Assembly (NCBI GenBank): GCA_964016885.1
Contig: OZ024740.1
Span: forward strand, 357,306,001-357,370,000
From: Eledone cirrhosa
Taxonomy: Eukaryota
DNA length: 64,000 bases
Direction of reading: 5' to 3'
In this document: one piece after another, positions 5,474 to 58,300 of the stretch
Layout of the letters: every line of letters begins with the position of its first letter
Position numbering within the stretch: the stretch's first letter is position 1
Made by a program: the position numbers and the translations under genes
Notes under the pieces: model-generated
Databases searched by the model: none
What the model saw: only the letters and a program-made list of their open reading frames with translations
Told to the model about the DNA's origin: nothing

Positions 5474-5486
5474 TTCTAGATAGATA

Positions 5487-7146
5487 TATTTCTTTATTTA
5501 CCATAAAGGCATAAAAAGAAGGGACAAATACAAAGGGGGAGTTTACATAAAACCGAGTAAAAAGGGTATAAAATGAAAATAATCAAAAACAACCTCAAAA
5601 GGGAGGGGACGTGATGGGGGTTGCACACACCCCCGAAAAAGTGTGCAATCCTTTGCCCAGGGAGCACATGGAGAAGGTGCTCCCCTCTCCTTCACTTCTT
5701 TACCTACAGGATGGTATACAGAGAAGGCCCATTTACACGAGCAATTCTCGCCACTATCACCCACCTTTCATAAAACTGCCTGTGGCCAAGCACCTCTCTC
5801 TCCATTCTTATCCTTCTTCCGAAGCGATATCGGAAGAAGTAGACCAGACTATGGCCAGAGAGGAAGTTGCCTGACCTTAGACCTTTCAATCGTGTCCGCA
5901 AAACAACTTCTTTCAACATGGCTATTACGCACAGAAAAACCGCCTTTGCTTCCTTTGTAAAGAGGGGAGGCGGCTTGATTGTCATCACGGACTCGGCGGT
6001 CAATCGAATCGGCGCCACCCGCGACAGCAGTCGTTCGGCGTAACCCCACAGATCAGCCACGCCCGGACATTGCACCAATCCGTGCGCAACGGTTTCTTCG
6101 TGACGCACGCATCTAGGGCAAATCTTTTTCGAGGGATCCCTGCCCGGGCGCCCGTGTCTGTAGAGCTTTTCTCGAACGAGTAGAGCCCCTCGGTAGCACT
6201 GCCAGGCCAGTGACTTCTGGAAGTTGTCCATTGGTCCCGGGCCGAAAGTCCTACCGAACAGGCTGGCCAGTTCGTCCTTTTCCATGTCCAGTGACTCTCC
6301 AAGGGTGTCATCGCCCCTGCTAGCCACCAGCCCTCTATAGAATGACGAGGTGGATTCTCCACCGGTGGCCGGGTCCGCTTGCCAGAGAGCCCTGAGCGCC
6401 TGGATACACTCAGTGTGCCAGTCGCCCAGTTTTCCGGATCTTTGCTTGACCCAGGACTGCAGCTCGGTGAGCGAGACGAGTCTGGAAAGGCTCGTCTCAC
6501 GAACGGAGCCCACACCGGTTGACCAGTGAGGAATACCTGTAGGTGCCGTAGCCTTAATGCGTACCTACGCATCATCAACCACGGCATCCCCAGCCCTCCT
6601 TTCGAAGGTTGTTGGCAGCAGATGGATCTTCTCACCATAGGAGGGCGCTTTTTCCAAAGAAATTGAAAGAGCATGCGTTCCATGGTGGTGAGTGTTTCCT
6701 TAGGGCAAGGCACGACAGTCAGGCGGTAGTAGGTGACGGACGCTATGTAAATGTTCGCCACCTCCGCCCGACCTTTCAGGGACAGCTTACACTTAGCCCA
6801 TTTCTGGGTCAGTGCAAACACCTTGCTCGTAACCTCGCCCCAGTTCTTTTCCACCTGGAGGTCCGGTCCAAACCAGACCCCAAGCAACTTCACCGGGCCC
6901 TCCGTCCAGTGTCCGACGACACCGTCGGGAGGCATCGGTCTGCCTCTCCACGTTCCGAGTTGCAGCCCGATGGATTTTTCCCGGTTCAGTTTCGCTCCTG
7001 ACAACCTTTCGTATTCCTTCAGTAAGGTGCCGATCACCTCGATCTCCGAGTCGGTCGATACCATTACTGTTACGTCATCGGCGTAGGCCGACACCGCTTT
7101 CCTCAATCCTGGTTCCAGGGGGATACCCTGCAACAACTCCAACTTG
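5487..7146 (-). mobile_element. 5'-truncated Tx1 copy (E2): RT C-half to 3' end, with 19-bp target-site duplication
   Basis: ORFs 6000-7142 (SAYADDVTV) and 5704-6513 are homologous to E1, with one frameshift near 6485. Flanked by identical ACGCAATTCTAGATAGATA at 5468-5486 and 7147-7165. Confidence 0.93.
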
Positions 7147-7155
7147 ACGCAATTC

Positions 7156-7551
<396 letters not shown>

Positions 7552-15923: not shown

Positions 15924-16115
15924 ATGTATGTATGTATGTATGCATGTATGTATGTATGTATGTATGTATGTATGTATGTATGTATGTATGTATGTATGTA
16001 TGTATGTATGTATGTGTATATGTAAAAGGTAAACAGAATAACAACACAATCGGTACAATATATGGAAGGTTGAAAGGGATATATTATGTTAACGCTTGAT
16101 ATAGCAGGAGGAGGG

Positions 16116-16146
16116 TCTTAACGTTTCGGAGCCCTTCATCAGAAGA
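16116..16146 (-). ncRNA. Minimal PLE-type hammerhead motif
   Basis: tctt-CTGATGA-agggctcc-GAAA-cg-TT-aaga. Stem III is reduced to the palindrome AACGTT and stem II is weak. Confidence 0.5.
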
Positions 16147-16235
16147 AAGAATGAGAAATAAGATATATTGAGGGGACGAGTAGGTTGGAATTGGAAAAAA
16201 TGTCTTTAGATAACAATAACAGGTCCATTCATGTT

Positions 16236-16309
<74 letters not shown>

Positions 16310-22655: not shown

Positions 22656-23282
22656 ATGCATGTATATATATATATATGTATGTATGTAGGTATGTATATA
22701 TATATATATATCATGTATATCATGTATATAATATATATAATGTGTGTGTGTGTGAATGTGTGTGTGTGTGTATGTGTGTGTGTGCGTGTGTGTGTGCGTG
22801 TTGGGGAAGTATTATTCAGAAAATATTTACTAAACAATATAATTCATAAGAATTCATATATAGGCGTATGTGTGTGTGTGCATGTGTATGTATGCATGTA
22901 TGTATATACTGACAAAAAGAGGGGCATATATATGGGTGCATTAAAATCCATTGTTCCTCTACATGTACATGCAACCGTACATATGAAGCACCAAAACTTA
23001 ATAACACAAAGAAATATAGAAACATACATGCTTATCTATTACACATAAGGCTATGTATAATAAGCACTACCACACATAAACATGCAATACACACTTAGAC
23101 ACATATATATTAAACAGGTGAAACACCCATCCACACACACACACAGACGTACGCGCACACACACATATACGTACATACACACACACATATATGTACATAC
23201 ATACATACATATAGACATACATACATACATACATACATACATACATACATACATACATACATACATACATACATACTTATAT

Positions 23283-23816
23283 GGTGGCTGCCAACTCGTT
23301 TTCGATTACGGCCACTACTTTATATCCATGTAGGAGAACCCCTACCGATGCGCTAAACAAGTGTGACTTTTTAGTCCAGCCAGCGACTTGACAACTCTGG
23401 TACAAACACTACACTTGTGGAAATTATTGACACATAGTGCTGGGCCCATGGTACCATGTGACGACAAGTGCAGAGAGATATCCAGATATAAAGCAATGCC
23501 TGTGCCGTGAAGCTTTTATAGTGAGCAAAGGCACTGCACAAAGCCAGTCCCACTCTCTTAACCAAGATGATATTTACCAAAAAGAAGAACAAGTCAACAT
23601 CATTGGATACCATCAGGGTTGCAGGTGTTATATCAGAGTTTTCCTTCTCCTAGAATTCTGCCTTGACAGGTTTTGTTTTTAGTCCTGCAGGATATCCAAA
23701 GTCACCCTCCTTACCAAGAAACCTTGGTGGGGTTGCCAGTTTAGTCGCCAACGACCCGACCATGAGACAGGTTGTACTGGGATACATGTTACCAGTAGCA
23801 CCAAGTGGTGACCTGA
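23283..23816 (-). mobile_element. Non-autonomous bipartite RTE-derived retroelement, copy 1 (73-bp internal deletion)
   Basis: Near-identical to 23898-24504. Lies in (CATA)n, and the variant unit acatactta is duplicated at 23271-23279 and 23822-23830. Confidence 0.75.
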
Positions 23817-23827
23817 CATAAACATAC

Positions 23828-23858
<31 letters not shown>

Positions 23859-23897
23859 CATACATACATACATACATACATACATACATACATACAT

Positions 23898-24504
23898 GGT
23901 GGCTGCCAACTCGTTTTCGAGTACGGCCACTACTTTATATCCATGTAGGAGAACCCCTACCGATGCGCTGAACAAGTGTGACTTTTTAGTCCAGCCAGCG
24001 ACTTGAAAACTTTGGTACAAACACTACACTTGTGACAATTATTGACACATAGTGCTGGGCCCATGGTACCATGTGATGACAAGTGCAGAGAGATCTCCAG
24101 ATATAAAGCAATGCCTGTGCCGTGAAGCTTTTATAGTGAGCAAAGGCACTGCACAAAGCCAGTCCCACTCTCTTAACCAAGATGATATTTACCAAAAAGA
24201 AGAACAAGTCAACATCATTGCATACCATCAGGGTTGCAGGTGTTATATCAGAGTTTTCCTTCTCCTAGAATTCTGCCTTGACAAAGGCTAAGGGGTCATC
24301 TCTCCCGGTGATTTTGGATGGCCATTGACTCTTAAGAGCTCCTTTGCCCTTTGACAGGTTTTGTTTTTAGTCCTGCAGGATGTCCAAAGTCACCCTCCTC
24401 ACCAAGAAACCTTGGTGGGGTTGCCAGTTTAGTCGCCAACGACCCGACCATGGGACAGGTTGTACTGGGATACATGTTACCAGTAGCACCAAGTGGTGAC
24501 CTGA
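23898..24504 (-). mobile_element. Non-autonomous bipartite RTE-derived retroelement, copy 2
   Basis: Has an RTE 5'-UTR-like motif (ctaggagaaggaaaactctgat). The 3' part encodes WRSLC and a terminal C2H2 finger CSVCTKVFKSLAGLKSHTCSAHR* (24028-23957), followed by a short 3' stem-loop and an (ATGT)n tail. No RT. Confidence 0.75.
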
Positions 24505-24578
24505 CATACATACATACATACATACATACATACATACATACATACATACATACATACATACATACATACATACATACA

Positions 24579-25237
24579 ATAAATGTAGGCTATGTAAAAC
24601 AAAGATCGAGGATGTAAGCCACATTGTTGCCAGCTGCGAAAGAATGTCATCTCGCTACTACCTCCCCATGAGACAGGATGGGATAGCTAGAACCATCTGG
24701 AACGCACTTCGGAAAACAAAATTAACAACAAACGAGGAAGAATATATTGAGACAGATGGCACTAAGGAATACTGGTGGAACCTGAAAATAAAAACTGCCA
24801 CCAAATTAAAGCACAACCGGCCTGATATTGTAGTTTGGGAACACACATTGAAAACGTGTTCTGTTGTGGAGATCAGCTGCCCACTTGATGTAAATGTTGT
24901 CAGAAAAATACAGGAGAAGGAGGACATCTACGGACCATTGATGAGGAGTTTACAAATCCAGTATCCAAGATACACCTTTAGCTTCATACCCATCATTATT
25001 GGTGCTACGGGTTATATACCAACCCGCTTGGACCAAAGTATGACTGAACTTGGATTTGCGGACAAAAAGCGCAGCTCCCTAATTCATGGTCTGCAAATGG
25101 CTGCGATAGCTGGCACCTTCAAAATTTGCAAAACATTCTTGCGATTCAAGGGATGACAATTTCTTTTCTTTTACAACCTTGCCAGCAGGAAGGTGGCCGG
25201 TCAAAAAAATATACTCGAAATTAAGAGAAAGAGAAAA
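24579..25237 (+). mobile_element. R4/Dong-like non-LTR retrotransposon 3' fragment (CCHC + restriction-like endonuclease)
   Basis: Open frame 24581-25156 reads [25 protein letters not shown] (RHD-like), HNRPDIVVW..VEISCP..EKEDIY, IPIIIGATG. An ~80-bp 3' UTR is followed by (CATA)n, and (CATA)n also lies upstream. Confidence 0.87.
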
Positions 25238-26259
25238 CATACATACATACATACACATATACATGAGTATGATTACCCTCCGTGCTCCATTTCGTCTTTT
25301 CTGTCACTGTGTTTCCCCGTCAAGGGCTCTAATGCAGCCTTTAAGGCCAGCTACTGACCTGCAGGATTCTATTGCAGATATCACAGCTGTCTAGCACACC
25401 CATGCGAATTTCTTGATTCCCATTGGTATTTGACATGTTAATGTGCTTTGTTAAACCTGATTTTATCGTCAGATGTTATTACACGTTGGCCACTTAAAAA
25501 TGCTTATCTACGTTGCATATGACGCCAAGTGGTTAGTCATTTCAGCTCTCGACAGCTGAACACAACAGCAGCATATGCATGTTAACATCTTATTTAACAA
25601 TAGTCCCGATGTCCCAATTATGAAGGTTACCAACGATAGCAGGACGATATCAAATGCAGTTCAACCTGCACTTGAATCGAGTCTTCCTTGGATCAACGCA
25701 TTTTCGCCTTTCTGCCGAACAGCGATGCCTGACTCTATTTGGTGCCCTCTTTCTTCATCAACCGGTAACCTTTCTTCATGGTGCTTGTATCCACATCGAA
25801 GACCTGTCACTTGAACTCCACGTAAAGCCCTGTCAATGAGTTTGGACTACATCCGCTCTCTTGTCGCCACAGTGTGTGTCATCGTCCTCGGCATGTGAAT
25901 CTAAATAAATAGTAACAAGCTTGATGATTTAAAACTACAACGATTTCCAGAGGTTCACTGATGAGAAGGAATTGTCCGTTTTTCTATTGTCTTTGTCATG
26001 TGCACTTCCCTGTTTTGGATTCATATTCGAAAGTCTTACACCTACAAACTTTTTTGAGTTTGAAATAATTTGCAAAATTTTATATATAAAAAAGTTTAAC
26101 TTTCTTTCGTCCATGCCGAATGAATAAATATCACTGAAAGTGAATTATTGATCCAGAAATGTTATAGGATTTAGCGATCTCTCGTGGTTACAACGGTAGC
26201 TGTGACATGATCACAGAATAAAATGCTCACGCCAAAATTTATATACGTTTATTATACAC

Positions 26260-33731: not shown

Positions 33732-33762
<31 letters not shown>

Positions 33763-33815
33763 TGTATGTATGTATGTATGTTCTTCTGGTTTCATAATTT
33801 TATAAATGTCTACCA

Positions 33816-33876
<61 letters not shown>

Positions 33877-35213
33877 TTTTCTAACATAAACACAAGACTC
33901 TTTAATTGGAATTTAAACATCAACTAGTTAGATATGTATGCATGTGTGCAGACATGGATGTTATTGTATGTTTGGATGTGTATGTTTTTAGTTATATGTG
34001 TGAATGTGCATGTATCTGTACATGTGTACATGCAGTTATTAAATGCAGAATGTTTGGACTGATTTACATATTTTTACTGTTTCATTAATGGACTGTTCTT
34101 GTAATTTCCTACTCAGTCGTGTTCCTTCTGGTTCTGTGAAGCCCAGCTTCTCAAGATTTGTACTGAAGCAGTTACTAACATATCCCAGTGCCCCAATAAT
34201 CACAGCTGTAAATATGAAGATATAGTCAGAGTGGAGTATCTGTAGATTCCTTATTAGTTCTGCATAGATATTCTCCTATGTATGCTCCAGGTCTGAATAT
34301 AGCAGATTTCTTCCAGAGAAGGATAGAGAGTGAGAGTGGAACTGAAAAAGAGATATAAAGGAAGAATCAACTCCGGTACCAGACTGATACATTTTTATCG
34401 GTCTGAATGGATGAACAGCCAAGTTGATCTCGATGGGATTTGACCTCAGAGAACAAAGAACCTGAAAGAATACTGCACAGCATTCTATCTAATTCGCCGC
34501 CATATGTATTCATATAGAATATATAAGTAAATTTGTTTCAAATTATTGCATGTTACGTTATTGCTGTTGTTATTTGGTCCTAAGATGGCCCCAATCGAGC
34601 AGACATGTGATTAAATGCATTCAAGAATAATGTAGCTCTGACTATATTTCCAACATGTGGTTTGAATGATATTTAGCTGATGTTTCTAGCATGTCAATCG
34701 ACTGCATAAAGTTCTACTCGCTGATATGTTCAATGCGTATCATGAAAATCTTTTTTCTTTAACTGTTGTTATTGTTTAGATTCACGTCTGTCGTAATTGA
34801 GTACACAAATGATCAAATATACTCACGCTGTGATCAACCCGTTTTCCCTGAGACAGATTTTAACCAGAGCCATATTATCCAACGTTCTTCCTTTTTATTA
34901 GTCATAGGGTTTGATTGGAGAGAGATTCGGCATCTTTTGATAGCAGAGTGTTATGCGTTAGAGATGACTCTCTACACATACACGTAAATACACAAACACA
35001 ATAAATGTAATCTGAGTTTTTCGAATATTAACAATAATATTTGATTAGTTCGTAATTATGCAAACAGCCTCTTTAAGTCATGTCAGTAAAATGACCTCGT
35101 AATTCTTGCTCTTGTGTTGGCATGTAAACAAAACTGCAGCCACTATATATATGGTACTCAACATAATTGTAGAGGATAAAATATATATTTGTCCCGTAGA
35201 ATTCATTTCTGTA

Positions 35214-38504: not shown

Positions 38505-39157
38505 CTGTGTGTGTACGTTGTATGTGCGTGTATTATATTATGGGCGTCATTACCACGCTGGTAAGGGAGCTAAGCCAGCAGTGATTACGACAATGATGGC
38601 AGTAGGTTAGTGTCATAATCTGACACAAGCATATAACTAAAGAGCCACCCCTCACATCCTCACCCCACACATCATTCACCCTGTCCCCCTCCGTTTCCTT
38701 CCACTCCTGTTTAGCATTTCAGCCCCGCTCCTCTTTCTACCTTCATCCTCTCCCTCTAATGTTTTCTCTCTCATCTTTCATGCCGACCACCACCGTGCTT
38801 TCTGGATTGGTTGTGTGTTTAAAAGATGTTCAGGTGTATATGTGTGTGGTGATCATTGGGTAGCGGTATGTGTTTGTATTTATGTATATATACGTATATG
38901 TTGTATGTGCGTGTGTGGCGATTAGGTATGCGAGAAAGACGGGAGTGGAGTGTGATGATCTGTGGCTGATTGTGAGTTGTAGAGGAAAGCAGAAACGAGG
39001 TTGTGTAAAGGACGGGGGAAATGAAGAACTGCATGCGTGTGGATAAGAGGAATGCCAAAACAAAACGTGTTCGTAGTGTGTGGGACAGAGGGTGTGTACG
39101 TGCGTGCTGATGTGAGAAAGAGATAGATAGATAGACAGATAGATAGATAGATAGATA

Positions 39158-39485
39158 TGTTTCTTTATTAGCCACAGGAGCACAAAAGAAGGGGACAACT
39201 ACAAAGGGGGAAGTTTACATACAATAAAAACGTGTAAAATACTATCACAAATGTAATTTAAAAATTAATCGATTTTCCCCAATAGGGGGAGACATTACAC
39301 ATGGGTAACACATATCCCCGAAAAAAAATGTGCAACCCTCATCTCCGGGAGTACGAAGAGTGTGTACCACTTTCCTCTCTTCCTCTTTTTCCTCAACCTA
39401 CAGACTGATATATAGAGAAGGCTCATTCACTCGGGCCATTCTCGCCACTTTCACCCACCTTTCATAAAATTTGCTGGGGTACAGC

Positions 39486-39486
<1 letters not shown>
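39158..39486 (-). mobile_element. Tx1 3'-terminal fragment (E4)
   Basis: Homologous to E1 454-762; (GATA)n on both sides. Confidence 0.9.
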
Positions 39487-39537
<51 letters not shown>

Positions 39538-39903
39538 TTCTTTATTTGCCACAGGGGCGTACAAAAATGGGACATTACTAGACGTGACGGCGGGTTTTTA
39601 CATAAAATCTTTAACAATAATGAATAACAATAAACTATATATAAAATAAAACAATCGAAATCGCCAATAGAGGGAACGTTACTGCGGGGTTGTTTTACAC
39701 CTCGTGGATAGAACAACCCTCAACACCAGGAGCACGTTTGTAGGTGTGCCCGTCTTCCCTCTGTTTGTCTTCCTCAACCTACAGGTTTATATACAGAGAA
39801 GGCCCATTCGCTCGGGCCATTTTCGCCACATTCACCCACCTTTCAGTGAATTTACTGGGGTGTATCACCTCTCTCTCCACTCTCACCTTCCTTCTGAAGT
39901 GGT

Positions 39904-39904
<1 letters not shown>
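39538..39904 (-). mobile_element. Tx1 3'-terminal fragment (E5)
   Basis: Homologous to the 3' ends of E2/E3; (GATA)n at 39487-39537 and 39905-39958. Confidence 0.9.
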
Positions 39905-39959
<55 letters not shown>

Positions 39960-43959: not shown

Positions 43960-46900
43960 ACTGTTGTTGTTGTAACAACTACTGTTGTTGTAACTACTGT
44001 TGTTGTAACTACTGTTATTGTAACTACAGATGTTGTGACTACTGTTGTTGTGACTACTGTTGTTGTAACTACTGTTATTGTAACTACAGATGTTGTGACT
44101 ACTGTTGTTGTGACTACTGTTGTTGTAACTACTGTTGTAACTACTGTTGTTGTAACTACTGTTGTTGTGACTACTGTTGTTGTAACTACTGTTATTGTAA
44201 CTACAGATGTTGTGACTACTGTTGTTGTAACTACTGTTGTTGTAACTACTGTTGTTGTAACTACTGTTGTTGTAAGTACTGTTGTTGTAACTACTGTTGT
44301 TGTAACTACTGTTGTTGTAACTACTGTTGTTGTAACTACTGTTATTGTAACTACAGATGTTGTGACTACTGTTGTTGTGACTACTGTTGTTGTAACTACT
44401 GTTGTAACTACTGTTGTTGTAACTACTGTTGTTGTGACTACTGTTGTTGTAACTACTGTTATTGTAACTACAGATGTTGTGACTACTGTTGTTGTGACTA
44501 CTGTTGTTGTAACTACTGTTGTTGTAACTACTGTTGTTGTAACTACTGTTGTTGTGACTACTGTTGTTGTAACTACTGTTGTTGTGACTACTGTTGTTGT
44601 AACTACTGTTGTTGTAACTACTGTTGTTGTGACTACTGTTGTTGTAACTACTGTTGTTGTGACTACTGTTGTTGTAACTACTGTTGTTGTAAGTACTGTT
44701 GTTGTGACTACTGTTGTTGTAACTACTGTTGTTGTAAGTACTGTTGTTGTGACTACTGTTGTTGTAACTACTGTTGTTGTGACTACTGTTGTTGTGACTA
44801 CTGTTGTTGTAACTACTGTTGTTGTGACTACTGTTGTTGTAACTACTGTTGTTGTAACTACTGTTGTTGTAACTACTGTTGTTGTGACTACTGTTGTTGT
44901 AACTACTGTTGTTGTAACTACTGTTGTTGTAACTACTGTTGTTGTAACTACTGTTGTTGTGACTACTGTTGTTGTAACTGCTGTTGTTGTGACTACTGTT
45001 GGTGTAACTACTGTTGTTGTAACTACTGTTGTTGTGACTACTGTTGTTGTAACTACTGTTGTTGTAACTACTGTTGTTGTAACTACTGTTGTTGTGACTA
45101 CTGTTGTTGTAACTACTGTTGTTGTAAGTACTGTTGTTGTGACTACTGTTGTTGTAACTACTGTTGTTGTAACTACTGTTGTTGTGACTAATGTTGTTGT
45201 GACTACTGTTGTTGTAACTACTGTTGTTGTAACTACTGTTGTTGTAACTACTGTTGTTGTAACTACTGTTGTTGTAACTACTGTTGTTGTAAGTACTGTT
45301 GTTGTGACTACTGTTGTTGTAACTACTGTTGTTGTGACTACTGTTGTTGTAACTACTGTTGTTGTAACTACTGTTGTTGTGACTACTGTTGTTGTAACTA
45401 CTGTTGTTGTGACTACTGTTGTTGTAACTACTGTTGTTGTAACTACTGTTGTTGTAACTACTGTTGTTGTAAGTACTGTTGTTGTGACTACTGTTGTTGT
45501 AACTACTGTTGTTGTAACTACTGTTGTTGTAACTACTGTTGTTGTAACTACTGTTGTTGTGACTACTGTTGTTGTAACTGCTGTTGTTGTGACTACTGTT
45601 GTTGTAACTACTGTTGTTGTAACTACTGTTGTTGTGACTAATGTTGTTGTGACTACTGTTGTTGTAACTACTGTTGTTGTAACTACTGTTGTTGTGACTA
45701 CTGTTGTTGTAACTACTGTTGTTGTAACTACTGTTGTTGTAACTACTGTTGTTGTAACTACTGTTGTTGTAACTACTGTTGTTGTAACTACTGTTGTTGT
45801 GACTACTGTTGTTGTAACTGCTGTTGTTGTAACTACTGTTGTTGTAACTACTGTTGTTGTAACTACTGTTGTTGTGACTACTGTTGTTGTGAATACTGTT
45901 GTTGTAACTACTGTTGTTGTAACTACTGTTGTTGTAACTACTGTTGTTGTGACTACTGTTGTTGTAACTACTGTTGTTGTGACTACTGTTGTTGTAACTA
46001 CTGTTGTTGTAACTACTGTTGTTGTAACTACTGTTGTTGTGACTACTGTTGTTGTTGTTGTTGTTGTTGTTGTTGTAACTACTGTTGTTGTAACAACTGT
46101 TATTGTGACTACTGTTGTTGTAACTACTGTTGTTGTGACTACTGTTGTTGTGACTACTGTTGTTGCGACTACTGTTGTTGTAACTACTGTTGTTGTAACT
46201 ACTGTTGTTGTAACTACTGTTGTTGTGACTACTGTTGTTGTTGTTGTTGTTGTTGTTGTTGTAACTACTGTTGTTGTAACAACTGTTATTGTGACTACTG
46301 TTGTTGTAACTACTGTTGTTGTAACTACTGTTGTTGTGACTACTGTTGTTGCGACTACTGTTGTTGTAACTACTGTTGTTGTAACTACTGTTGTTGTAAC
46401 TACTGTTGTTGTAACTACTGATGTTGTAACTACTGTTGTTGTAACTACTGTTGTTGTAACTACTGTTGTTGTAACTACTGTTGTTGTAACTACTGTTGTT
46501 GTAACTACTGTTGTTGTAACTACTGTTGTTGTAACTACTGTTGTAACTACTGTTGTTGTAACTACTGTTTTTGTAACTACTGTTGTTGTAACTACTGTTG
46601 TTGTAACTACTGTTGTTGTAACTACTGTTGTTGTAACTACTGTTGTTGTAACTACTGATGTTGTAACTACTGTTGTAACTACTGTTGTTGTAACTACTGT
46701 TGTTGTAAATACTGTTGTTGTAACTACTGTTGTTGTGACTACTGTTGTTGTAACTACTGTTGTTGTAACTACTGTTGTTGTGACTACTGTTGTTGTGACT
46801 ACTGTTGTGGTAACTACTGTTGTTGTAACTACTGTTGTTGTAACTATTGATGTTGTAACTACTGTTGTTGTAACTACTGTTGTTGTAACTACTGTTGTTG

Positions 46901-49826
46901 TAACTACTGTTGTAACTACTGTTGTTGTAACTACTGTTTTTGTAACTACTGTTGTTGTAACTACTGTTGTTGTAACTACTGTTGTTGTAACTACTGTTGT
47001 TGTAACTACTGTTGTTGTAACTACTGATGTTGTAACTACTGTTGTAACTACTGTTGTTGTAACTACTGTTGTTGTAAATACTGTTGTTGTAACTACTGTT
47101 GTTGTGACTACTGTTGTTGTAACTACTGTTGTTGTAACTACTGTTGTTGTGACTACTGTTGTTGTGACTACTGTTGTGGTAACTACTGTTGTTGTAACTA
47201 CTGTTGTTGTAACTATTGATGTTGTAACTACTGTTGTTGTAACTACTGTTGTTGTAACTACTGTTGTTGTAAGTACTGTTGTTGTGACTACTGTTGTTGT
47301 AACTACTGTTGTTGTAACTACTGTTGTTGTGACTAATGTTGTTGTGACTACTGTTGTTGTAACTACTGTTGTTGTAACTACTGTTGTTGTAACTACTGAT
47401 GTTGTGACTAATGTTGTTGTGACTACTGTTGTTGTAACTACTGTTGTTGTAACTACTGTTGTTGTGACTACTGTTGTTGTAACTACTGTTGTTGTAACTA
47501 CTGTTGTTGTAACTACTGTTGTTGTAACTACTGTTGTTGTAACTACTGTTGTTGTAACTACTGTTGTTGTAACTACTGTTGTTGTAACTACTGTTGTTGT
47601 AACTACTGTTGTTGTAACTACTGTTGTTGTAACTACTGTTGTTGTAACTACTGTTGTTGTGACTAATGTTGTTGTGACTACTGTTGTTGTAACTACTGTT
47701 GTTGTAACTACTGTTGTTGTAACTATTGATGTTGTAACTACTGTTGTTGTAACTACTGTTGTTGTAACTACTGTTGTTGTAACTACTGTTGTAACTACTG
47801 TTGTTGTAACTACTGTTTTTGTAACTACTGTTGTTGTAACTACTGTTGTTGTAACTACTGTTGTTGTAACTACTGTTGTTGTAACTACTGTTGTTGTAAC
47901 TACTGATGTTGTAACTACTGTTGTAACTACTGTTGTTGTAACTACTGTTGTTGTAAATACTGTTGTTGTAACTACTGTTGTTGTGACTACTGTTGTTGTA
48001 ACTACTGTTGTTGTAACTACTGTTGTTGTGACTACTGTTGTTGTGACTACTGTTGTGGTAACTACTGTTGTTGTAACTACTGTTGTTGTAACTATTGATG
48101 TTGTAACTACTGTTGTTGTAACTACTGTTGTTGTAACTACTGTTGTTGTAAGTACTGTTGTTGTGACTACTGTTGTTGTAACTACTGTTGTTGTAACTAC
48201 TGTTGTTGTGACTAATGTTGTTGTGACTACTGTTGTTGTAACTACTGTTGTTGTAACTACTGTTGTTGTAACTACTGTTGTTGTAACTACTGTTGTTGTA
48301 ACTACTGTTGTTGTAAGTACTGTTGTTGTGACTACTGTTGTTGTAACTACTGTTGTTGTGACTACTGTTGTTGTAACTACTGTTGTTGTAAGTACTGTTG
48401 TTGTGACTACTGTTGTTGTAACTACTGTTGTTGTGACTACTGTTGTTGTAACTACTGTTGTTGTAACTACTGTTGTTGTAACTACTGTTGTTGTAAGTAC
48501 TGTTGTTATGACTACTGTTGTTGTAACTACTGTTGTTGTAACTACTGTTGTTGTAACTACTGTTGTTGTAACTACTGTTGTTGTGACTACTGTTGTTGTA
48601 ACTGCTGTTGTTGTGACTACTGTTGTTGTAACTACTGTTGTTGTAACTACTGTTGTTGTGACTAATGTTGTTGTGACTACTGTTGTTGTAACTACTGTTG
48701 TTGTAACTACTGTTGTTGTGACTACTGTTGTTGTAACTACTGTTGTTGTAACTACTGTTGTTGTAACTACTGTTGTTGTAACTACTGTTGTTGTAACTAC
48801 TGATGTTGTAACTACTGATGTTGTAACTACTGTTGTTGTAACTACTGTTGTTGTAACTACTGTTGTTGTAACTACTGTTGTTGTAACTACTGTTGTTGTA
48901 ACTACTGTTGTTGTAACTACTGTTGTAACTACTGTTGTTGTAACTACTGTTGTTGTAACTACTGTTGTTGTAACTACTGATGTTGTAACTACTGTTGTAA
49001 CTACTGTTGTTGTAACTACTGTTGTTGTAAATACTGTTGTTGTAACTACTGTTGTTGTGACTACTGTTGTTGTAACTACTGTTGTTGTAACTACTGTTGT
49101 TGTGACTACTGTTGTTGTGACTACTGTTGTGGTAACTACTGTTGTTGTAACTACTGTAGTTGTAACTATTGATGTTGTAACTACTGTTGTTGTAACTACT
49201 GTTGTTGTAACTACTGTTGTTGTAACTACTGTTGTAACTACTGTTGTTGTAACTACTGTTGTTGTAACTACTGTTGTTGTAACTACTGTTGTTGTAACTA
49301 TTGATGTTGTAACTACTGTTGTTGTGACTACTGTTGTTGTAACTACTGTTGTTGTGACTACTGTTGTTGTAACTGCTGTTGTTGTGAATACTGTTGTTGT
49401 AACTACTGTTGATGTAACTACTGTTGTTGTAACTACTGTTGTTGTAACTACTGTTGTTGTAACTACTGTTGTTGTGACTACTGTTGTTGTAACTACTGTT
49501 GTTGTAACTACTGTTGTTGTAACTACTGTTGTTGTAACTACTGTTGTTGTAACTACTGTTGTTGTAACTACTGTTGTTGTGACTACTGTTGTTGTAACTG
49601 CTGTTGTTGTAACTACTGTTGTTGTAACTACTGTTGTTGTAACTACTGTTGTTGTGACTACTGTTGTTGTGACTACTGTTGTTGTAACTACTGTTGTTGT
49701 AACTACTGTTGTTGTAACTACTGTTGTTGTGACTACTGTTGTTGTAACTACTGTTGTTGTGACTACTGTTGTTGTAACTACTGTTGTTGTAACTACTGTT
49801 GTTGTAACTACTGTTGTTGTGACTAC

Positions 49827-49871
<45 letters not shown>

Positions 49872-52338
49872 AACTACTGTTGTTGTAACAACTGTTATTG
49901 TGACTACTGTTGTTGTAACTACTGTTGTTGTGACTACTGTTGTTGTAACTACTGTTGTTGTAACTACTGTTGTTGTAACTACTGTTGTTGTAACTACTGT
50001 TGTTGTAACTACTGTTGTTGTAACTACTGTTGTTGTAACTACTGTTGTTGTGACTACTGTTGTTGTGACTACTGTTGTTGTAACTACTGTTGTTGTAACT
50101 ACTGTTGTTGTAACTACTGTTGTTGTAACTACTGTTGTTGTAACTACTGTTGTTGTGACTACTGTTGTTGTAACTACTGTTGTTGTAACTACTGTTGTCG
50201 TAACTACTGATGTTGTAACTACTGTTGTAACTACTGTTGTTGTAACTACTGTTGTTGTAACTACTGTTGTTGTAACTACTGTTGTTGTAACTACTGTTGT
50301 TGTAACTACTGTTGTTGTAACTACTGTTGTTGTAACTACTGTTGTTGTAACTACTGTTGTTGTAACTACTGTTGTTGTGACTACTGTTGTTGTAACTACT
50401 GTTGTTGTAACTACTGTTGTTGTGACTACTGTTGTTGTGACTACTGTTGTGGTAACTACTGTTGTTGTAACTACTATTGTTGTAACTACTGTTGTTGTAA
50501 CTACTGTTGTTGTAACTACTGTTGTTGTAACTACTGTTGTTGTGACTACTGTTGTTGTAACTACTGTTGTTGTGACTACTGTTGTTGTAACTACTGTTGT
50601 TGTAACTACTGTTGTAACTACTGTTGTTGTGACTACTGTTGTTGTAACTACTGTTGTTGTAACTACTGTTGTTGTGACTACTGTTGTTGTAACTACTGTT
50701 GTTGTGACTACTGTTGTTGTAACTACTGTTGTTGTAACTACTGTTGTTGTAACTACTGTTGTTGTGACTACTGTTGTTGTAACTACTGTTGTTGTAACTA
50801 CTGTTGTTGTAACTACTGTTGTTGTAACTACTGTTGTTGTAAATACTGTTGTTGTAACTATTGTTGTTGTAACTACTGTTGTTGTAACTACTGTTGTTGT
50901 AACTACTGTTGTTGTAAATACTGTTGTTGTAACTACTGTTGTTGTAACTACTGTTGTTGTAACTACTGATGTTGTAACTACTGTTGTTGTAACTACTGTT
51001 GTTGTGACTACTGTTGTTGTAACTACTGTTGTTGTGACTACTGTTGTTGTAACTACTGTTGTTGTAACTACTGTTGTAACTACTGTTGTTGTAACTACTG
51101 TTGTTGTAACTACTGTTGTTGTAACTACTGTTGTTGTAACTACTGTTGTTGTAACTACTGTTGTTGTAACTACTGTTGTTGTAAATACTGTTGTTGTAAC
51201 TACTGTTGTTGTAACTACTGTTGTTGTAACTACTGATGTTGTAACTACTGTTGTAACTATAGTTGTCGTAACTACTGTTGTTGTAACTACTGTTGTTGTA
51301 ACTACTGATGTTGTAACTACTGATGTTGTAACTACTGTTGTTGTAACTACTGTTGTTGTAACTACTGTTGTTGTAACTACTGTTGTAACTACTGTTGTTG
51401 TAACTACTGTTGTTGTAACTACTGTTGTTGTAACTACTGTTGTTGTGACTACTGTTGTAACTGCTGTTGTTGTAACTACTGTTGTTGTAACTACTGTTGT
51501 AACTACTGTTGTTGTAACTACTGTTGTTGTAACTACTGTTAGTTGTAACTACTGTTGTTGTGACTACTGTTGTTGTAACTACTGTTGTTGTAACTACTGT
51601 TGTTGTAACTACTGTTGTTGTGACTACTGTTATTGTAACTACTGTTGTTGTAAGTACTGTTGTAACTACTGTTGTTGTAACTACTGTTGTTGTAACTACT
51701 GTTGTTGTGACTACTGTTGTTGTAACTACTGTTGTTGTAACTACTGTTGTAACTACTGTTGTTGTAACTAATGTTGTTGTAACTACTGTTGTTGTAACTA
51801 CTGTTGTTGTAACTATTGATGTTGTAACTACTGTTGTTGTGACTACTGTTGTTGTAACTACTGTTGTTGTGACTACTGTTGTTGTAACTGCTGTTGTTGT
51901 GAATACTGTTGTTGTAACTACTGTTGTTGTAACTACTGTTGTTGTAACTACTGTTGTTGTAACTACTGTTGTTGTAACTACTGTTGTGACTACTGTTGTT
52001 GTAACTACTGTTGTTGTAACTACTGTTGTTGTAACTACTGTTGTTGTAACTACTGTTGTTGTAACTACTGTTGTTGTAACTACTGTTGTTGTGACTACTG
52101 TTGTTGTAACTGCTGTTGTTGTAACTACTGTTGTTGTAACTACTGTTGTTGTAACTACTGTTGTTGTGACTACTGTTGTTGTGACTACTGTTGTTGTAAC
52201 TACTGTTGTTGTAACTACTGTTGTTGTAACTACTGTTGTCGTGACTACTGTTGTTGTAACTACTGTTGTTGTGACTACTGTTGTTGTAACTACTGTTGTT
52301 GTAACTACTGTTGTTGTAACTACTGTTGTTGTGACTAC

Positions 52339-52377
<39 letters not shown>

Positions 52378-55300
52378 AACTACTGTTGTTGTAACAACTG
52401 TTATTGTGACTACTGTTGTTGTAACTACTTTTGTTGTGACTACTGTTGTTGTAACTACTGTTGTTGTAACTACTGTTGTTGTAACTACTGTTGTTGTAAC
52501 TACTGTTGTTGTAACTACTGTTGTTGTAACTACTGTTGTTGTAGCTACTGTTGTTGTGACTACTGTTGTTGTGACTACTGTTGTTGTAACTACTGTTGTT
52601 GTAACTACTGTTGTTGTAACTACTGATGTTGTAACTACTGTTGTTGTAACTACTGTTGTTGTAACTACTGTTGTTGTAACTACTGTTGTTGTAACTACTG
52701 TTGTTGTAACTACTGTTGTTGTAACTACTGTTGTCGTAACTACTGATGTTGTAACTACTGTTGTAACTACTGTTGTTGTAACTACTGTTGTTGTAACTAC
52801 TGTTGTTGTAACTACTGTTGTTGTAACTACTGTTGTTGTAACTACTGTTGTTGTAACTACTGTTGTTGTAACTACTGTTGTTGTGACTACTGTTGTTGTA
52901 ACTACTGTTGTTGTAACTACTGTTGTTGTGACTACTGTTGTTGTGACTACTGTTGTGGTAACTACTGTTGTTGTAACTACTATTGTTGTAACTACTGTTG
53001 TTGTAACTACTGTTGTTGTAACTACTGTTGTTGTAACTACTGTTGTTGTGACTACTGTTGTTGTAACTACTGTTGTTGTGACTACTGTTGTTGTAACTAC
53101 TGTTGTTGTAACTACTGTTGTAACTACTGTTGTTGTGACTACTGTTGTTGTAACTACTGTTGTTGTAACTACTGTTGTTGTGACTACTGTTGTTGTAACT
53201 ACTGTTGTTGTGACTACTGTTGTTGTAACTACTGTTGTTGTAACTACTGTTGTTGTAACTACTGTTGTTGTGACTACTGTTGTTGTAACTACTGTTGTTG
53301 TAACTACTGTTGTTGTAACTACTGTTGTTGTAACTACTGTTGTTGTAAATACTGTTGTTGTAACTACTGTTGTTGTAACTACTGTTGTTGTAACTACTGT
53401 TGTTGTAACTACTGTTGTTGTAAATACTGTTGTTGTAACTACTGTTGTTGTAACTACTGTTGTTGTAACTACTGATGTTGTAACTACTGTTGTTGTAACT
53501 ACTGTTGTTGTGACTACTGTTGTTGTAACTACTGTTGTTGTGACTACTGTTGTTGTAACTACTGTTGTTGTAACTACTGTTGTAACTACTGTTGTTGTAA
53601 CTACTGTTGTTGTAACTACTGTTGTTGTAACTACTGTTGTTGTAACTACTGTTGTTGTAACTACTGTTGTTGTAAATACTGTTGTTGTAACTACTGTTGT
53701 TGTAACTACTGTTGTTGTAACTACTGATGTTGTAACTACTGTTGTAACTACTGTTGTTGTAACTACTGTTGTTGTAACTACTGTTGTTGTAACTACTGAT
53801 GTTGTAACTACTGATGTTGTAACTACTGTTGTTGTAACTACTGTTGTTGTAACTACTGTTGTTGTAACTACTGTTGTAACTACTGTTGTTGTAACTACTG
53901 TTGTTGTAACTACTGTTGTTGTAACTACTGTTGTTGTAACTACTGTTGTTGTAACTACTGTTGTTGTAAATACTGTTGTTGTAACTACTGTTGTTGTAAC
54001 TACTGTTGTTGTAACTACTGATGTTGTAACTACTGTTGTAACTACTGTTGTTGTAACTACTGTTGTTGTAACTACTGTTGTTGTAACTACTGATGTTGTA
54101 ACTACTGATGTTGTAACTACTGTTGTTGTAACTACTGTTGTTGTAACTACTGTTGTTGTAACTACTGTTGTAACTACTGTTGTTGTAACTACTGTTGTTG
54201 TGACTACTGTTGTAACTACTGTTGTTGTAACTACTGTTGTTGTAACTACTGTTGTAACTACTGTTGTTGTAACTACTGTTGTTGTAACTACTGTTGTTGT
54301 AACTACTGTTGTTGTGACTACTGTTGTTGTAACTACTGTTGTTGTAACTACTGTTGTTGTAACTACTGTTGTTGTGACTACTGTTGTTGTAACTACTGTT
54401 GTTGTAAGTACTGTTGTAACTACTGTTGTTGTAACTACTGTTGTTGTAACTACTGTTGTTGTGACTACTGTTGTTGTAGCTACTGTTGTTGTAACTACTG
54501 TTGTAACTACTGTTGTTGTAACTACTGTTGTTGTAACTACTGTTGTTGTGACTACTGTTGTTGTAACTACTGTTGTTGTAACTATTGTTGTTGTAACTAC
54601 TGTTGTTGTGACTACTGTTGTTGTGACTACTGTTGTTGTAACTACTGTTGTTGTGACTACTGTTGTTGTAACTACTGTTGTTGTAACTACTGTTGTTGTA
54701 ACTACTGTTGTTGTAACTACTGTTGTTGTAACTACTGTTGTTGTGACTACTGTTGTTGTGACTACTGTTGTGACTACTGTTGTTGTAACTACTGTTGTTG
54801 TAACTACTGTTGTTGTGACTACTGTTGTTGTAACTACTGTTGTTGTGACTACTGTTGTTGTAACTACTGTTGTTGTAACTACTGTTGTTGTAACTACTGT
54901 TGTTGTGACTACTGTTGTTCTAACTACTGTTCTGTGACTACTGTTGTTGTAACTACTGTTGTTGTAACTAATGTTGTTGTAACTACTGTTGTTGTAACTA
55001 CTGTTGTTGTGACTAATGTTGTTGTAACTACTGTTGTTGTAACTACTGTTGTTGTAACTACTGTTGTTGTAACTATTGTTGTTGTAACTACTGTTGTTGT
55101 AACTACTGTTGTTGTAACTACTGTTGTTGTAACTACTGTTGTTGTAACTACTGATGTTGTAACTACTGATGTTGTAACTACTGTTGTTGTAACTACTGTT
55201 GTTGTAACTACTGATGTTGTAACTACTGTTGTTGTAACTACTGTTGTTGTAACTACTGTTGTTGTAACTACTGTTGTTGTAACTACTGATGTTGTAACTA

Positions 55301-58300
55301 CTGTTGTAACTACTGTTGTTGTAACTACTGTTGTTGTAACTACTGTTGTTGTAACTACTGTTGTTGTAACTACCGTTGTTGTGACTACTGTTGTTGTAAC
55401 TACTGTTGTTGTAACTACTGTTGTTGTAACTACTGTTGTAACTACTGTTGTTGTAACTACTGTTGTTGTAACTACTGTTGTTGTAACTACTGTTGTTGTG
55501 ACTACTGTTGTTGTAACTACTGTTGTTGTAACTACTGTTGTTGTAACTACTGTTGTTGTGACTACTGTTGTTGTAACTACTGTTGTTGTGACTACTGTTG
55601 TTGTAACTACTGTTGTTGTAACTACTGTTGTTGTAACTACTGTTGTTGTGACTACTGTTGTTGTAACTACTGTTGTTGTAACTACTGTTGTTGTAACTAC
55701 TGTTGTTGTAACTACTGTTGTTGTAACTACTGTTGTTGTAACTACTGTTGTTGTAACTACTGTTGTTGTAACTACTGTTGTTGTAACTACTGTTGTTGTA
55801 AATACTGTTGTTGTAACTACTGTTGTTGTAACTACTGTTGTTGTAACTACTGATGTTGTAACTACTGTTGTTGTAACTACTGTTGTTGTGACTACTGTTG
55901 TTGTAACTACTGTTGTTGTGACTACTGTTGTTGTAACTACTGTTGTTGTAACTACTGTTGTAACTACTGTTGTTGTAACTACTGTTGTTGTAACTACTGT
56001 TGTTGTAACTACTGTTGTTGTAACTACTGTTGTTGTAACTACTGTTGTTGTAAATACTGTTGTTGTAACTACTGTTGTTGTAACTACTGTTGTTGTAACT
56101 ACTGATGTTGTAACTACTGTTGTAACTACTGTTGTTGTAACTACTGTTGTTGTAACTACTGTTGTTGTAACTACTGATGTTGTAACTACTGATGTTGTAA
56201 CTACTGTTGTTGTAACTACTGTTGTTGTAACTACTGTTGTTGTAACTACTGTTGTAACTACTGTTGTTGTAACTACTGTTGTTGTAACTACTGTTGTTGT
56301 AACTACTGTTGTTGTAACTACTGTTGTTGTAACTACTGTTGTTGTAAATACTGTTGTTGTAACTACTGTTGTTGTAACTACTGTTGTTGTAACTACTGAT
56401 GTTGTAACTACTGTTGTAACTACTGTTGTTGTAACTACTGTTGTTGTAACTACTGTTGTTGTAACTACTGATGTTGTAACTACTGATGTTGTAACTACTG
56501 TTGTTGTAACTACTGTTGTTGTAACTACTGTTGTTGTAACTACTGTTGTAACTACTGTTGTTGTAACTACTGTTGTTGTGACTACTGTTGTAACTACTGT
56601 TGTTGTAACTACTGTTGTTGTAACTACTGTTGTAACTACTGTTGTTGTAACTACTGTTGTTGTAACTACTGTTGTTGTAACTACTGTTGTTGTGACTACT
56701 GTTGTTGTAACTACTGTTGTTGTAACTACTGTTGTTGTAACTACTGTTGTTGTGACTACTGTTGTTGTAACTACTGTTGTTGTAAGTACTGTTGTAACTA
56801 CTGTTGTTGTAACTACTGTTGTTGTAACTACTGTTGTTGTGACTACTGTTGTTGTAGCTACTGTTGTTGTAACTACTGTTGTAACTACTGTTGTTGTAAC
56901 TACTGTTGTTGTAACTACTGTTGTTGTGACTACTGTTGTTGTAACTACTGTTGTTGTAACTATTGTTGTTGTAACTACTGTTGTTGTGACTACTGTTGTT
57001 GTGACTACTGTTGTTGTAACTACTGTTGTTGTGACTACTGTTGTTGTAACTACTGTTGTTGTAACTACTGTTGTTGTAACTACTGTTGTTGTAACTACTG
57101 TTGTTGTAACTACTGTTGTTGTGACTACTGTTGTTGTGACTACTGTTGTGACTACTGTTGTTGTAACTACTGTTGTTGTAACTACTGTTGTTGTGACTAC
57201 TGTTGTTGTAACTACTGTTGTTGTGACTACTGTTGTTGTAACTACTGTTGTTGTAACTACTGTTGTTGTAACTACTGTTGTTGTGACTACTGTTGTTCTA
57301 ACTACTGTTCTGTGACTACTGTTGTTGTAACTACTGTTGTTGTAACTAATGTTGTTGTAACTACTGTTGTTGTAACTACTGTTGTTGTGACTAATGTTGT
57401 TGTAACTACTGTTGTTGTAACTACTGTTGTTGTAACTACTGTTGTTGTAACTATTGTTGTTGTAACTACTGTTGTTGTAACTACTGTTGTTGTAACTACT
57501 GTTGTTGTAACTACTGTTGTTGTAACTACTGATGTTGTAACTACTGATGTTGTAACTACTGTTGTTGTAACTACTGTTGTTGTAACTACTGATGTTGTAA
57601 CTACTGTTGTTGTAACTACTGTTGTTGTAACTACTGTTGTTGTAACTACTGTTGTTGTAACTACTGATGTTGTAACTACTGTTGTAACTACTGTTGTTGT
57701 AACTACTGTTGTTGTAACTACTGTTGTTGTAACTACTGTTGTTGTAACTACCGTTGTTCTGACTACTGTTGTTGTAACTACTGTTGTTGTAACTACTGTT
57801 GTTGTAACTACTGTTGTAACTACTGTTGTTGTAACTACTGTTGTTGTAACTACTGTTGTTGTAACTACTGTTGTTGTGACTACTGTTGTTGTAACTACTG
57901 TTGTTGTAACTACTGTTGTTGTAACTACTGTTGTTGTGACTACTGTTGTTGTAACTACTGTTGTTGTAACTATCGTTGTTGTAACTACTGTTGTTGTGAC
58001 TACTGTTGTTGTGACTACTGTTGTTGTGACTACTGTTGTTGTAACTACTGTTCTTGTGACTACTGTTGTTGTAACTACTGTTCTGTGACTACTGTTGTTG
58101 TAACTACTGTTGTTGTAACTACTGTTGTAACTACTGTTGTTGTAACTACTGTTGTTGTAACTACTGTTGTTGTGACTACTGTTGTTGTAACTACTGTTGT
58201 TGTGACTAATGTTGTTGTAACTACTGTTGTTGTAACTACTGTTGTTGTAACTACTGTTGTTGTAACTATTGTTGTTGTAACTACTGTTGTTGTGACTACT

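What the first reader, a model, noticed from the sequence alone, without database searches (positions are those of the whole stretch)
23191..25262. One (CATA)n array colonised by two unrelated retrotransposon clades on opposite strands
Seen: (CATA)n - RTE-derived copy (-) - (CATA)n - RTE-derived copy (-) - (CATA)n - R4/Dong-like RLE fragment (+) - (CATA)n. The RTE derivative has a sense (ATGT)n tail and the RLE element a sense (CATA)n tail. Known: RTE uses an APE endonuclease and is generally not site-specific, while R4-clade Dong targets (TAA)n. Inference: an APE system and an RLE system have converged on the same tetranucleotide with opposite strand polarity.
Basis: partly seen in the sequence, partly recalled or inferred. 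Interest (0 to 1): 0.75.

Follow-up and report, generated by a model that had tools for sequence, protein, structure and literature searches.

The report
Two retrotransposon clades share CATA repeats
Two unrelated kinds of jumping gene sit inside the same four-letter DNA repeat across this animal's genome and almost always face opposite ways; one is nearly confined to that repeat, while the other, from a group usually described as not choosy, strongly prefers it but also uses AT repeats, likely because the two cut opposite strands of the repeat.

Summary
Confirmed, with one correction. The locus holds two copies of a ~606-nt internally deleted RTE element (minus strand) and the 3' 660 nt of an R4/Dong-type RLE LINE (plus strand), separated by (CATA)n. 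I recovered both autonomous partners. RLE family: 55 of 61 copies, with 55 different 5' end points, have (CATA)n on the 5' side (background 0.33%); 1,231 of 1,656 3' ends are followed by CATACATA and none by TATGTATG. RTE family: 28,817 3' ends, followed by ATGTATGT 9,136, ATATATAT 8,681, ATACATAC 9; 5' polarity 2,889 to 13. The repeats are mainly target DNA, not tails: target-site duplications (mode 12 nt) occur, one inside the window. Correction: the RTE is not CATA-specific. It uses (AT)n nearly as often in raw counts, though it prefers (ATGT)n about 40-60-fold per available site. Precedents exist: TRAS/SART sit in opposite directions in telomeric repeats, Waldo (APE) targets ACAY, and Dong targets (TAA)n. 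A CATA-targeting Dong and a strand-polar, microsatellite-seeking RTE were not found in ten literature searches. This scan reported the same pairing earlier on other DNA of this genome. The nicking chemistry is inferred, not tested.

The parts
23167..23282 (+). (CATA)n array 1, ending in the left copy (23271-23282) of copy A's 12-nt target-site duplication
23283..23815 (-). Copy A of the bipartite non-autonomous RTE element (533 nt; 73-nt internal deletion relative to B, between short TGTCAA repeats)
   Evidence: partner
23816..23820 (-). TATGT leader found before 26 of 36 full-length copies of the family
23822..23897 (+). (CATA)n array 2; 23822-23833 is the right copy of A's duplication, so arrays 1 and 2 were likely one array before A inserted
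23898..24076 (-). Copy B, 3' part (element positions 428-606): last C2H2 zinc-finger codons and 3' UTR of the partner RTE LINE
   Evidence: 92-98% identical to the 3' end of LINE copies; zf-C2H2 in the partner
24075..24503 (-). Copy B, 5' part (element positions 1-429): 5' UTR of the partner RTE LINE
   Evidence: 94-98.6% identical to the 5' end of five full-length ~4.0-kb LINE copies L152, L154, L156, L158, L165
24504..24578 (+). (CATA)n array 3, between the 5' end of B and the truncated 5' end of the RLE copy; cannot be the 3' tail of either
24576..25237 (+). 5'-truncated copy (last ~660 of ~4,215 nt) of an R4/Dong-type LINE: CCHC knuckle, restriction-like endonuclease, stop at 25154-25156, 81-nt 3' UTR ending GAGAAAA
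25238..25264 (+). (CATA)n array 4, short downstream target remnant

Best explanation
Two unrelated retrotransposon families occupy pre-existing (CATA)n/(TATG)n microsatellites in opposite orientations genome-wide, likely because their enzymes nick and prime on opposite strands of the repeat. Shown: the R4/Dong-type family is almost confined to (CATA)n in sense orientation. The RTE family and its 606-nt deletion derivative join at ATRT, make duplications of about 12 nt, and sit in (ATGT)n far more often per site than in (AT)n, almost never in (ATAC)n. Inferred from target-primed reverse transcription: the RLE protein (predicted N-terminal Myb/SANT-like domain plus PD-(D/E)xK nuclease) reads a long upstream CATA tract and nicks the TATG strand. 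The RTE APE nuclease nicks at TpA on the CATA strand, as other RTEs cut at TA. TpA is symmetric, so the polarity needs a second determinant; the likeliest is an RNA 3' end of (AUGU)n/(AU)n, picked up by read-through from the donor site, pairing with the nicked strand. Stacks such as this locus would then build up because each insertion leaves or duplicates repeat on both sides.
For: RLE: 5' flank CATA in 55 of 61 copies with 55 distinct 5' end points, and 15 of 17 resolved copies in a set picked only by the 3' end. 3' end + CATACATA 1,231 of 1,656; + TATGTATG 0. Upstream tract longer than downstream (median 70 vs 32 nt; 43 vs 18 copies; p=0.0008). Predicted three-helix N-terminal domain matches Myb/SANT folds, Z 5-6.2. 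RTE: partner recovered with APE, RT and C2H2 domains. 3' end 28,817; +ATGTATGT 9,136; +ATATATAT 8,681; +ATACATAC 9. 5' end after (ATGT)3 2,889, after (ACAT)3 13; after ATGTATGT 2,101, after ATATATAT 1,234, while ATATATAT is 38 times commoner in the background. 5'-truncated copies: TATG 15, TA 5, CATA 2 of 48. Duplications of 8 nt or more in 41 of 85 copies vs 20.4 in shuffled pairings, maximum 30 in 1,000. 13 of 62 RLE 3' ends are followed by an RTE 3' end on the opposite strand, none by an RTE on the same strand.
Against: No nick site or RNA end was measured. 14 of 85 RTE copies have non-repeat 5' flanks and 30 of 85 show no duplication, so some 3' repeat may be true tail. Copies with TATG 5' and TA 3' flanks (9) outnumber the reverse (3), which hints that upstream sequence read by the protein, not RNA pairing, sets part of the preference. 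Full-length 5' counts could be inflated if upstream repeat is co-copied. Background rests on 390 kb, and arrays partly owe their size to the elements. The Myb match is of middling Z, with no Foldseek hit at E<=0.001.
Confidence: 0.72

Rival explanations
1. The RTE's APE nuclease itself has evolved strand-specific recognition of the CATA strand (a true target-specific APE as in the R1 and Tx1 clades), and RNA pairing is secondary.
For: Polarity of about 1,000:1 at the 3' end and 200:1 at the 5' end. G at -2, -6, -10, -14 upstream of the duplication in 17-23 of 35 copies, and the usual RTE upstream T-stretch in only 2 of 35. TATG-5'/TA-3' copies 9 vs 3. The endonuclease is the primary determinant in TRAS/SART (PMC7265360, passages).
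Against: About 30% of 3' ends are followed by pure (AT)n. The upstream G pattern follows from sitting in an array. RTE 3' repeats are proposed to steer site choice (PMC6007223).
Confidence: 0.3
2. One family builds the arrays with its 3' tail and the other merely colonises them (RTE tail as the RLE's target).
For: RLE and RTE 3' ends are often only 3-20 nt apart, tail to tail. Some RTE copies have repeat only at the 3' side (L068, L069, L150). RTEs are known to generate microsatellites (PMC2887409, passages).
Against: Array 3 lies between two 5' ends. 5'-truncated copies of both families have repeat on the 5' side. Copy A duplicated a variant unit. 10 of 12 (CATA)5+ arrays in 390 kb of evenly placed DNA have no copy of either family within 60 nt (other families were not all searched).
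Confidence: 0.12
3. Passive accumulation or assembly artefact: random insertions survive in repeats, or the stack is a misassembly.
For: The genome is very rich in microsatellites (about 8% of sampled 16-mers are alternating purine-pyrimidine repeats).
Against: Survival bias cannot give strand polarity of 9,136 to 9 or 1,231 to 0. (TA)n is 14 times commoner than CATA, yet none of the 61 RLE 5' flanks classed as TA. The same junctions recur at thousands of places on many contigs.
Confidence: 0.02

Closest known systems
Dong, DongAg, DongBg and ostracod Dong (R4 clade, RLE)
   Same: Single ORF, RT, CCHC, C-terminal restriction-like nuclease, no N-terminal zinc finger, predicted N-terminal Myb/SANT-like domain, microsatellite target (PMC7998251, PMC3812793; passages). 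Dong elements are reported in octopus genomes (PMC9115989, PMC8967140).
   Different: Target is (CATA)n, not (TAA)n, which PMC7998251 gives as the target in most insects, molluscs and cnidarians. A second family about 50% identical in the C-terminal part also ends at CATA with the same polarity.
TRAS1 and SART1 of Bombyx mori (telomeric (TTAGG)n)
   Same: Two non-LTR families inserted in one repeat in opposite directions (PMC7265360, passage).
   Different: Both use APE nucleases (R1 clade, from my own knowledge) and the target is telomeric. Here one is APE (RTE) and one RLE (R4), and the target is a dispersed microsatellite.
Waldo (R1 clade, APE): WaldoAg1, WaldoAg2, WaldoFs1
   Same: APE elements that target ACAY microsatellites, which include this tetranucleotide (PMC3812793, passage).
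   Different: Insect R1 clade, not RTE; no RLE co-tenant described in what I read; the original paper was not read.
RTE/Bov-B LINEs with the Tn-TA signature, and RTE-2_OV of Octopus vulgaris
   Same: TA at the duplication start, duplications mostly 7-15 nt with 10-12 commonest, 3' microsatellite-like ends (PMC6007223; PMC13295347). RTE-2_OV has endonuclease, RT and a C2H2 finger (PMC9115989 section 6).
   Different: No upstream T-stretch here (2 of 35). [quoted passage not shown] RTE-2_OV was not aligned.
Bipartite non-autonomous RTE elements (Bov-A unit, RTESINE1/2, WALLSI3, MAR4_MD)
   Same: 5' and 3' parts of an RTE LINE joined by internal deletion (PMC5786205, passages).
   Different: Only in its target bias and high copy number (at least 10,402 exact 5'-end matches, nearly all sampled being the short form); the structure is ordinary.

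Membership tests
R4/Dong clade (RLE) | Single ORF with RT followed by CCHC and PD-(D/E)xK-type nuclease | tested here: met
   L047: one frame of 1,172 codons with one internal stop; RVT_1 and zf-RVT; CRLC..H..C, RHD, PDIV, EISCP. Best PDB sequence hits are R2 proteins.
R4/Dong clade (RLE) | No N-terminal zinc finger (unlike R2) | tested here: met
   No zinc-finger family in the 274-aa N-terminus or in the N-termini of 17 homologues at E<=1; sequence.
R4/Dong clade (RLE) | Divergent N-terminal SANT/Myb-like domain (PMC7998251) | tested here: inconclusive
   Model has a three-helix bundle at 27-79 with pLDDT above 90 over 21-80; top VIA matches are Zeste, GT-1, Sap1, ISWI, DMAP1, TRF1 (Z 5-6.2, rmsd about 2-2.5 for most, 50-64 residues); Z is middling and Foldseek E>0.9.
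R4/Dong clade (RLE) | RT phylogeny groups with R4, Dong, Rex6 | not testable with these tools
   No named R4/Dong reference among 120 listed homologues.
Dong proper | (TAA)n target | tested here: not met
   55 of 61 5' flanks are CATA. It works like Dong but is not a (TAA)n Dong.
RTE clade | Single ORF, APE then RT, no ORF1, no RNase H | tested here: met
   Copies of about 4.0 kb; ORF starts some 50 nt after the 429-nt shared 5' part; Exo_endo_phos, RVT_1 and C2H2, no RNase H hit. Homologues are mostly 1,040-1,200-aa APE+RT proteins. No intact ORF among 20 long copies.
RTE clade | RTE-type endonuclease | tested here: met
   Named homologues of the APE domain include 'craniofacial development protein 2-like' at 44-51%; that this name marks the Bov-B/RTE endonuclease is from my own knowledge.
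RTE clade | Duplications of 7-15 nt, mostly 10-12, starting at TA | tested here: met
   Mode 12 nt; T before the duplication in 33 of 35. The repeat context makes T likely anyway.
RTE clade | Upstream T-stretch (Tn-TA signature) | tested here: not met
   TTT in 2 of 35. This is a reported tendency, not a clade-defining trait.
RTE clade | RT phylogeny | not testable with these tools
   No named RTE, Vingi or Ingi references available.
Bipartite non-autonomous LINE | 5' and 3' parts both from one LINE | tested here: met
   Positions 1-429 and 428-606 match the two ends of full-length copies; joint at a shared TCA.
Strictly target-specific APE element (as R1, Tx1 clades) | Nearly all copies at one target | tested here: not met
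   32% ATGTATGT and 30% ATATATAT after the 3' end; 31 of 85 clean TATG 5' flanks.
5' self-cleaving ribozyme of RTE elements | HDV-like fold at the 5' end | tested here: inconclusive
   No ribozyme family in Rfam at E<=5; seven related 5' ends share hairpins with one two-sided change in 35 pairs.

The most novel reading that the evidence does not exclude
An RTE lineage has become a strand-specific microsatellite-targeting element, a third APE route to targeting besides the R1 and Tx1 clades, through a loop in which the donor site supplies the RNA tail that selects the next site. It partitions one dispersed repeat by strand with an RLE lineage that left (TAA)n for (CATA)n, and the two keep renewing each other's landing sites.
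Probability: 0.3. Interest if true: 0.75.

Novelty: new variant of a known kind. Interest (0 to 1): 0.52.

Why it matters
Target-specific APE elements are described from the R1 and Tx1 clades (PMC4640811), and RTEs are treated as dispersed integrators, also in gene-writing work (PMC13708176). A very abundant RTE with about 1,000:1 strand polarity in one repeat makes an open question testable: does the RNA 3' repeat or the nuclease choose the site (posed in PMC6007223 and PMC13295347)? The CATA-specific Dong-type family adds a new RLE target and a natural contrast to (TAA)n Dong for mapping specificity to the Myb-like domain. It would also explain stacked, polarised retroelement clusters in these genomes.

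Tried and rejected
DNA search of the own genome with the short element's 5' end returned nothing because common words are skipped; exact patterns were used instead. Rfam gave only repeat-driven or weak hits and no ribozyme; alignment folding did not establish one. Duplication length for the RLE family could not be read: arrays are too regular, with 2 candidate imperfect cases. Pfam did not detect Myb/SANT in N-termini; Foldseek had no hit at E<=0.001. The protein atlas was unavailable. RTE-like ORFs next to short copies in L101, L108 and L111 were rejected as the partner (different 3' ends); L086 proved to be it. Rejected readings: a fixed (ATGT)n tail (3' flanks vary and match 5' flanks); strict CATA specificity of the RTE; a satellite or gene reading of the non-coding element. 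Rows dropped: 13 of 30 RLE copies whose 5' end lay beyond the fetched DNA; copies within 60-80 nt of a locus edge; L120 (reached through the ATACATAC pattern) is kept in the 85 but left out of the 48 truncated copies. Of the 40 best RLE hits, 39 were fetched. No supplements were read; Repbase entries and Kojima and Fujiwara 2003 and 2004 were not seen and may already note these targets.

Full report
Observation. The region 23167-25264 holds four (CATA)n arrays separating three inserts. A (23283-23815) and B (23898-24503) lie on the minus strand, are 97-98% identical, and A lacks 73 nt. C (24576-25237, plus) encodes the C-terminal end of a restriction-like-endonuclease LINE. The window lies on contig C1 of a 3.0-Gb microsatellite-rich animal genome. 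The one homologue named to a close species is from Argonauta (61%), so an octopod host is likely.

The RLE family. Copies 98-99% identical to C are widespread. Full-length copies are about 4.2 kb; L047 has one frame of 1,172 codons with a single internal stop, with RT, CCHC and the nuclease motifs. Its best PDB relatives are R2 proteins. It has no N-terminal zinc finger, and a predicted three-helix domain at residues 27-79 resembles Myb/SANT folds with middling Z. This fits the R4/Dong description in PMC7998251 (passages). A tree with named references could not be built.

RLE target. Of 61 copies with both ends in hand, 55 have a CATA 16-mer on the 5' side, 4 non-repeat and 2 mixed, with 55 different 5' end points. 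A truncated 5' end cannot carry its own flank, so this is target. In the set picked only by the 3' end, 15 of 17 resolved copies were CATA; 13 of 30 were unresolved. Background is 0.33% for CATA and 4.62% for TA. Genome-wide, 1,231 of 1,656 exact 3' ends are followed by CATACATA and none by TATGTATG within 3 nt. The upstream tract is longer than the downstream one (median 70 vs 32 nt, p=0.0008), as expected if the protein reads upstream DNA (inference). A second RLE family, about 50% identical in the C-terminal part, also ends at CATA (26 of 27 rows begin with CATA or TACA; some rows are the same place).

The RTE family. The short element has no long ORF, but its 3' part encodes a C2H2 finger remnant. 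L086 showed an ORF running into it. Five full-length copies of about 4.0 kb match the short element over positions 1-429 at their 5' end and 428-606 at their 3' end, so it is a bipartite deletion derivative of the kind reviewed in PMC5786205 (passages). The partner has APE, RT and C2H2 domains in one ORF, and its nuclease is close to proteins named craniofacial development protein 2-like, which I recall as the mark of RTE/Bov-B nucleases. An octopus RTE with the same domains is described in PMC9115989 (section 6); I did not align it.

RTE target. There are 28,817 exact 3' ends: 9,136 continue ATGTATGT, 8,681 ATATATAT and 9 ATACATAC. At the 5' end, 2,889 matches follow (ATGT)3 (a few places counted twice) and 13 follow (ACAT)3; 2,101 follow ATGTATGT and 1,234 ATATATAT. 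ATATATAT is 38 times commoner than ATGTATGT in 390 kb of evenly placed DNA, giving a per-site preference of about 40 (3') to 64 (5'). In 85 sampled copies the 5' flank was TATG 31, TA 13, mixed G-rich 6, CATA 2, other repeat 3, other 30; of those 30, 9 are nested or rearranged element DNA, 7 have a short repeat at the joint and 14 are non-repeat. The 3' joint begins ATAT or ATGT in 80 of 85. Duplications of 8 nt or more occur in 41 of 85 against 20.4 for shuffled pairs, mode 12 nt. In the window, A is bracketed by ACATACTTATAT and ACATACTTACAT, which hold the only CTTA units in arrays 1-3. So the RTE is strongly polar and strongly biased, but not exclusive.

Co-tenancy. 13 of 62 RLE 3' ends are followed, across a short tract, by an RTE 3' end on the opposite strand; none by an RTE on the same strand; 3 by another RLE copy on the same strand. 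Gaps of 3 and 7 nt are shorter than an RTE duplication, so in those cases the RLE likely came second. 10 of 12 background arrays had neither family within 60 nt, though other elements also abut such arrays, so the ultimate origin of the arrays is open.

Mechanism. Shown: flanks, polarity, duplications, partner structure. Inferred from target-primed reverse transcription: the RLE primes on the TATG strand and the RTE on the CATA strand. RTEs are reported to start duplications at TA (PMC13295347, passages), and T precedes the duplication in 33 of 35 copies here. TpA is symmetric, so a second determinant must set polarity. I favour pairing of an (AUGU)n/(AU)n RNA end with the nicked strand, one of two roles proposed in PMC6007223 (parts 2-4 of 6 read). 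An (AUGU)n end would pair fully with ACAT, with one wobble per unit with ATAT, and with two with the other strand, which matches the observed order (inference). Nuclease specificity is the main rival, with some support from the 9-to-3 asymmetry of mixed flanks.

Comparison and novelty. Opposite orientation in one repeat is known for TRAS1 and SART1 (PMC7265360, passages). ACAY targeting by APE elements is known for Waldo, and (TAA)n for Dong (PMC3812793, passages). RTE sites are described as not sequence-specific (PMC2887409, passages), and Bov-B is rarely flanked by target like its 3' repeat. Ten full-text searches found no report of a CATA-targeting Dong or of a polar microsatellite-seeking RTE; PMC8967140 (passages) lists both families in cephalopods without targets in the passages seen. 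PMC4640811 and PMC13708176 were seen as passages. Subscription papers, Repbase and supplements were not seen. Earlier notes of this scan describe the same pairing elsewhere in this genome; they are not counted as support.

Verdict. A real feature and a new variant of known kinds. The Dong-type half is a new target for a known targeting group. The RTE half is the more surprising, but it is a bias, not strict specificity, and may extend a known RTE tendency. Interest 0.52.

Noticed in passing
window 442-~4950 (-), 5477-7145 (-), 7197-7510, 39121-39953: APE + RT + zf-RVT LINE copies whose 3' ends, and several truncated 5' ends, abut (GATA/TAGA)n arrays, always in the same orientation in the window; related ends in L002, L159, L188, L190, L193, L208 also mostly abut GATA-type repeats. 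Likely a third microsatellite-targeting family, possibly L1/Tx1-like.
   Followed up: partly
window 33733-34330 (-); L036, L038, L079, L130, L139, L153, L168: Second RLE family, about 50% identical in the nuclease region, ending AAAACCAGAAGAA and followed by (CATA)n with the same polarity.
   Followed up: partly
L108:1-1050, L111, L010, L015, L049: Second RTE family with C2H2 fingers, a microsatellite-filled 3' UTR and a related 3' terminus followed by (ATGT)n; matches the description of RTE-2_OV but was not aligned to it. It appears to have a short derivative too.
   Followed up: partly
RLE copies: The CATA tract 5' of RLE copies is about twice as long as the 3' tract (median 70 vs 32 nt); either an upstream binding requirement or repeat added at the 5' joint.
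   Followed up: partly
window 16016-16240; L169, L171, L173, L199: A ~220-nt repeated element whose end abuts TA, TG or TATG tracts; class not determined.
   Followed up: no
window 43977-62874: 19-kb satellite of a 15-bp unit, 1,277 copies, 93% matches.
   Followed up: no
window 24370-24510 (-): The 5' 140 nt of the RTE family keep hairpins across seven diverged copies and full-length copies start at one position after a TATGT-like leader; no known ribozyme matched.
   Followed up: partly
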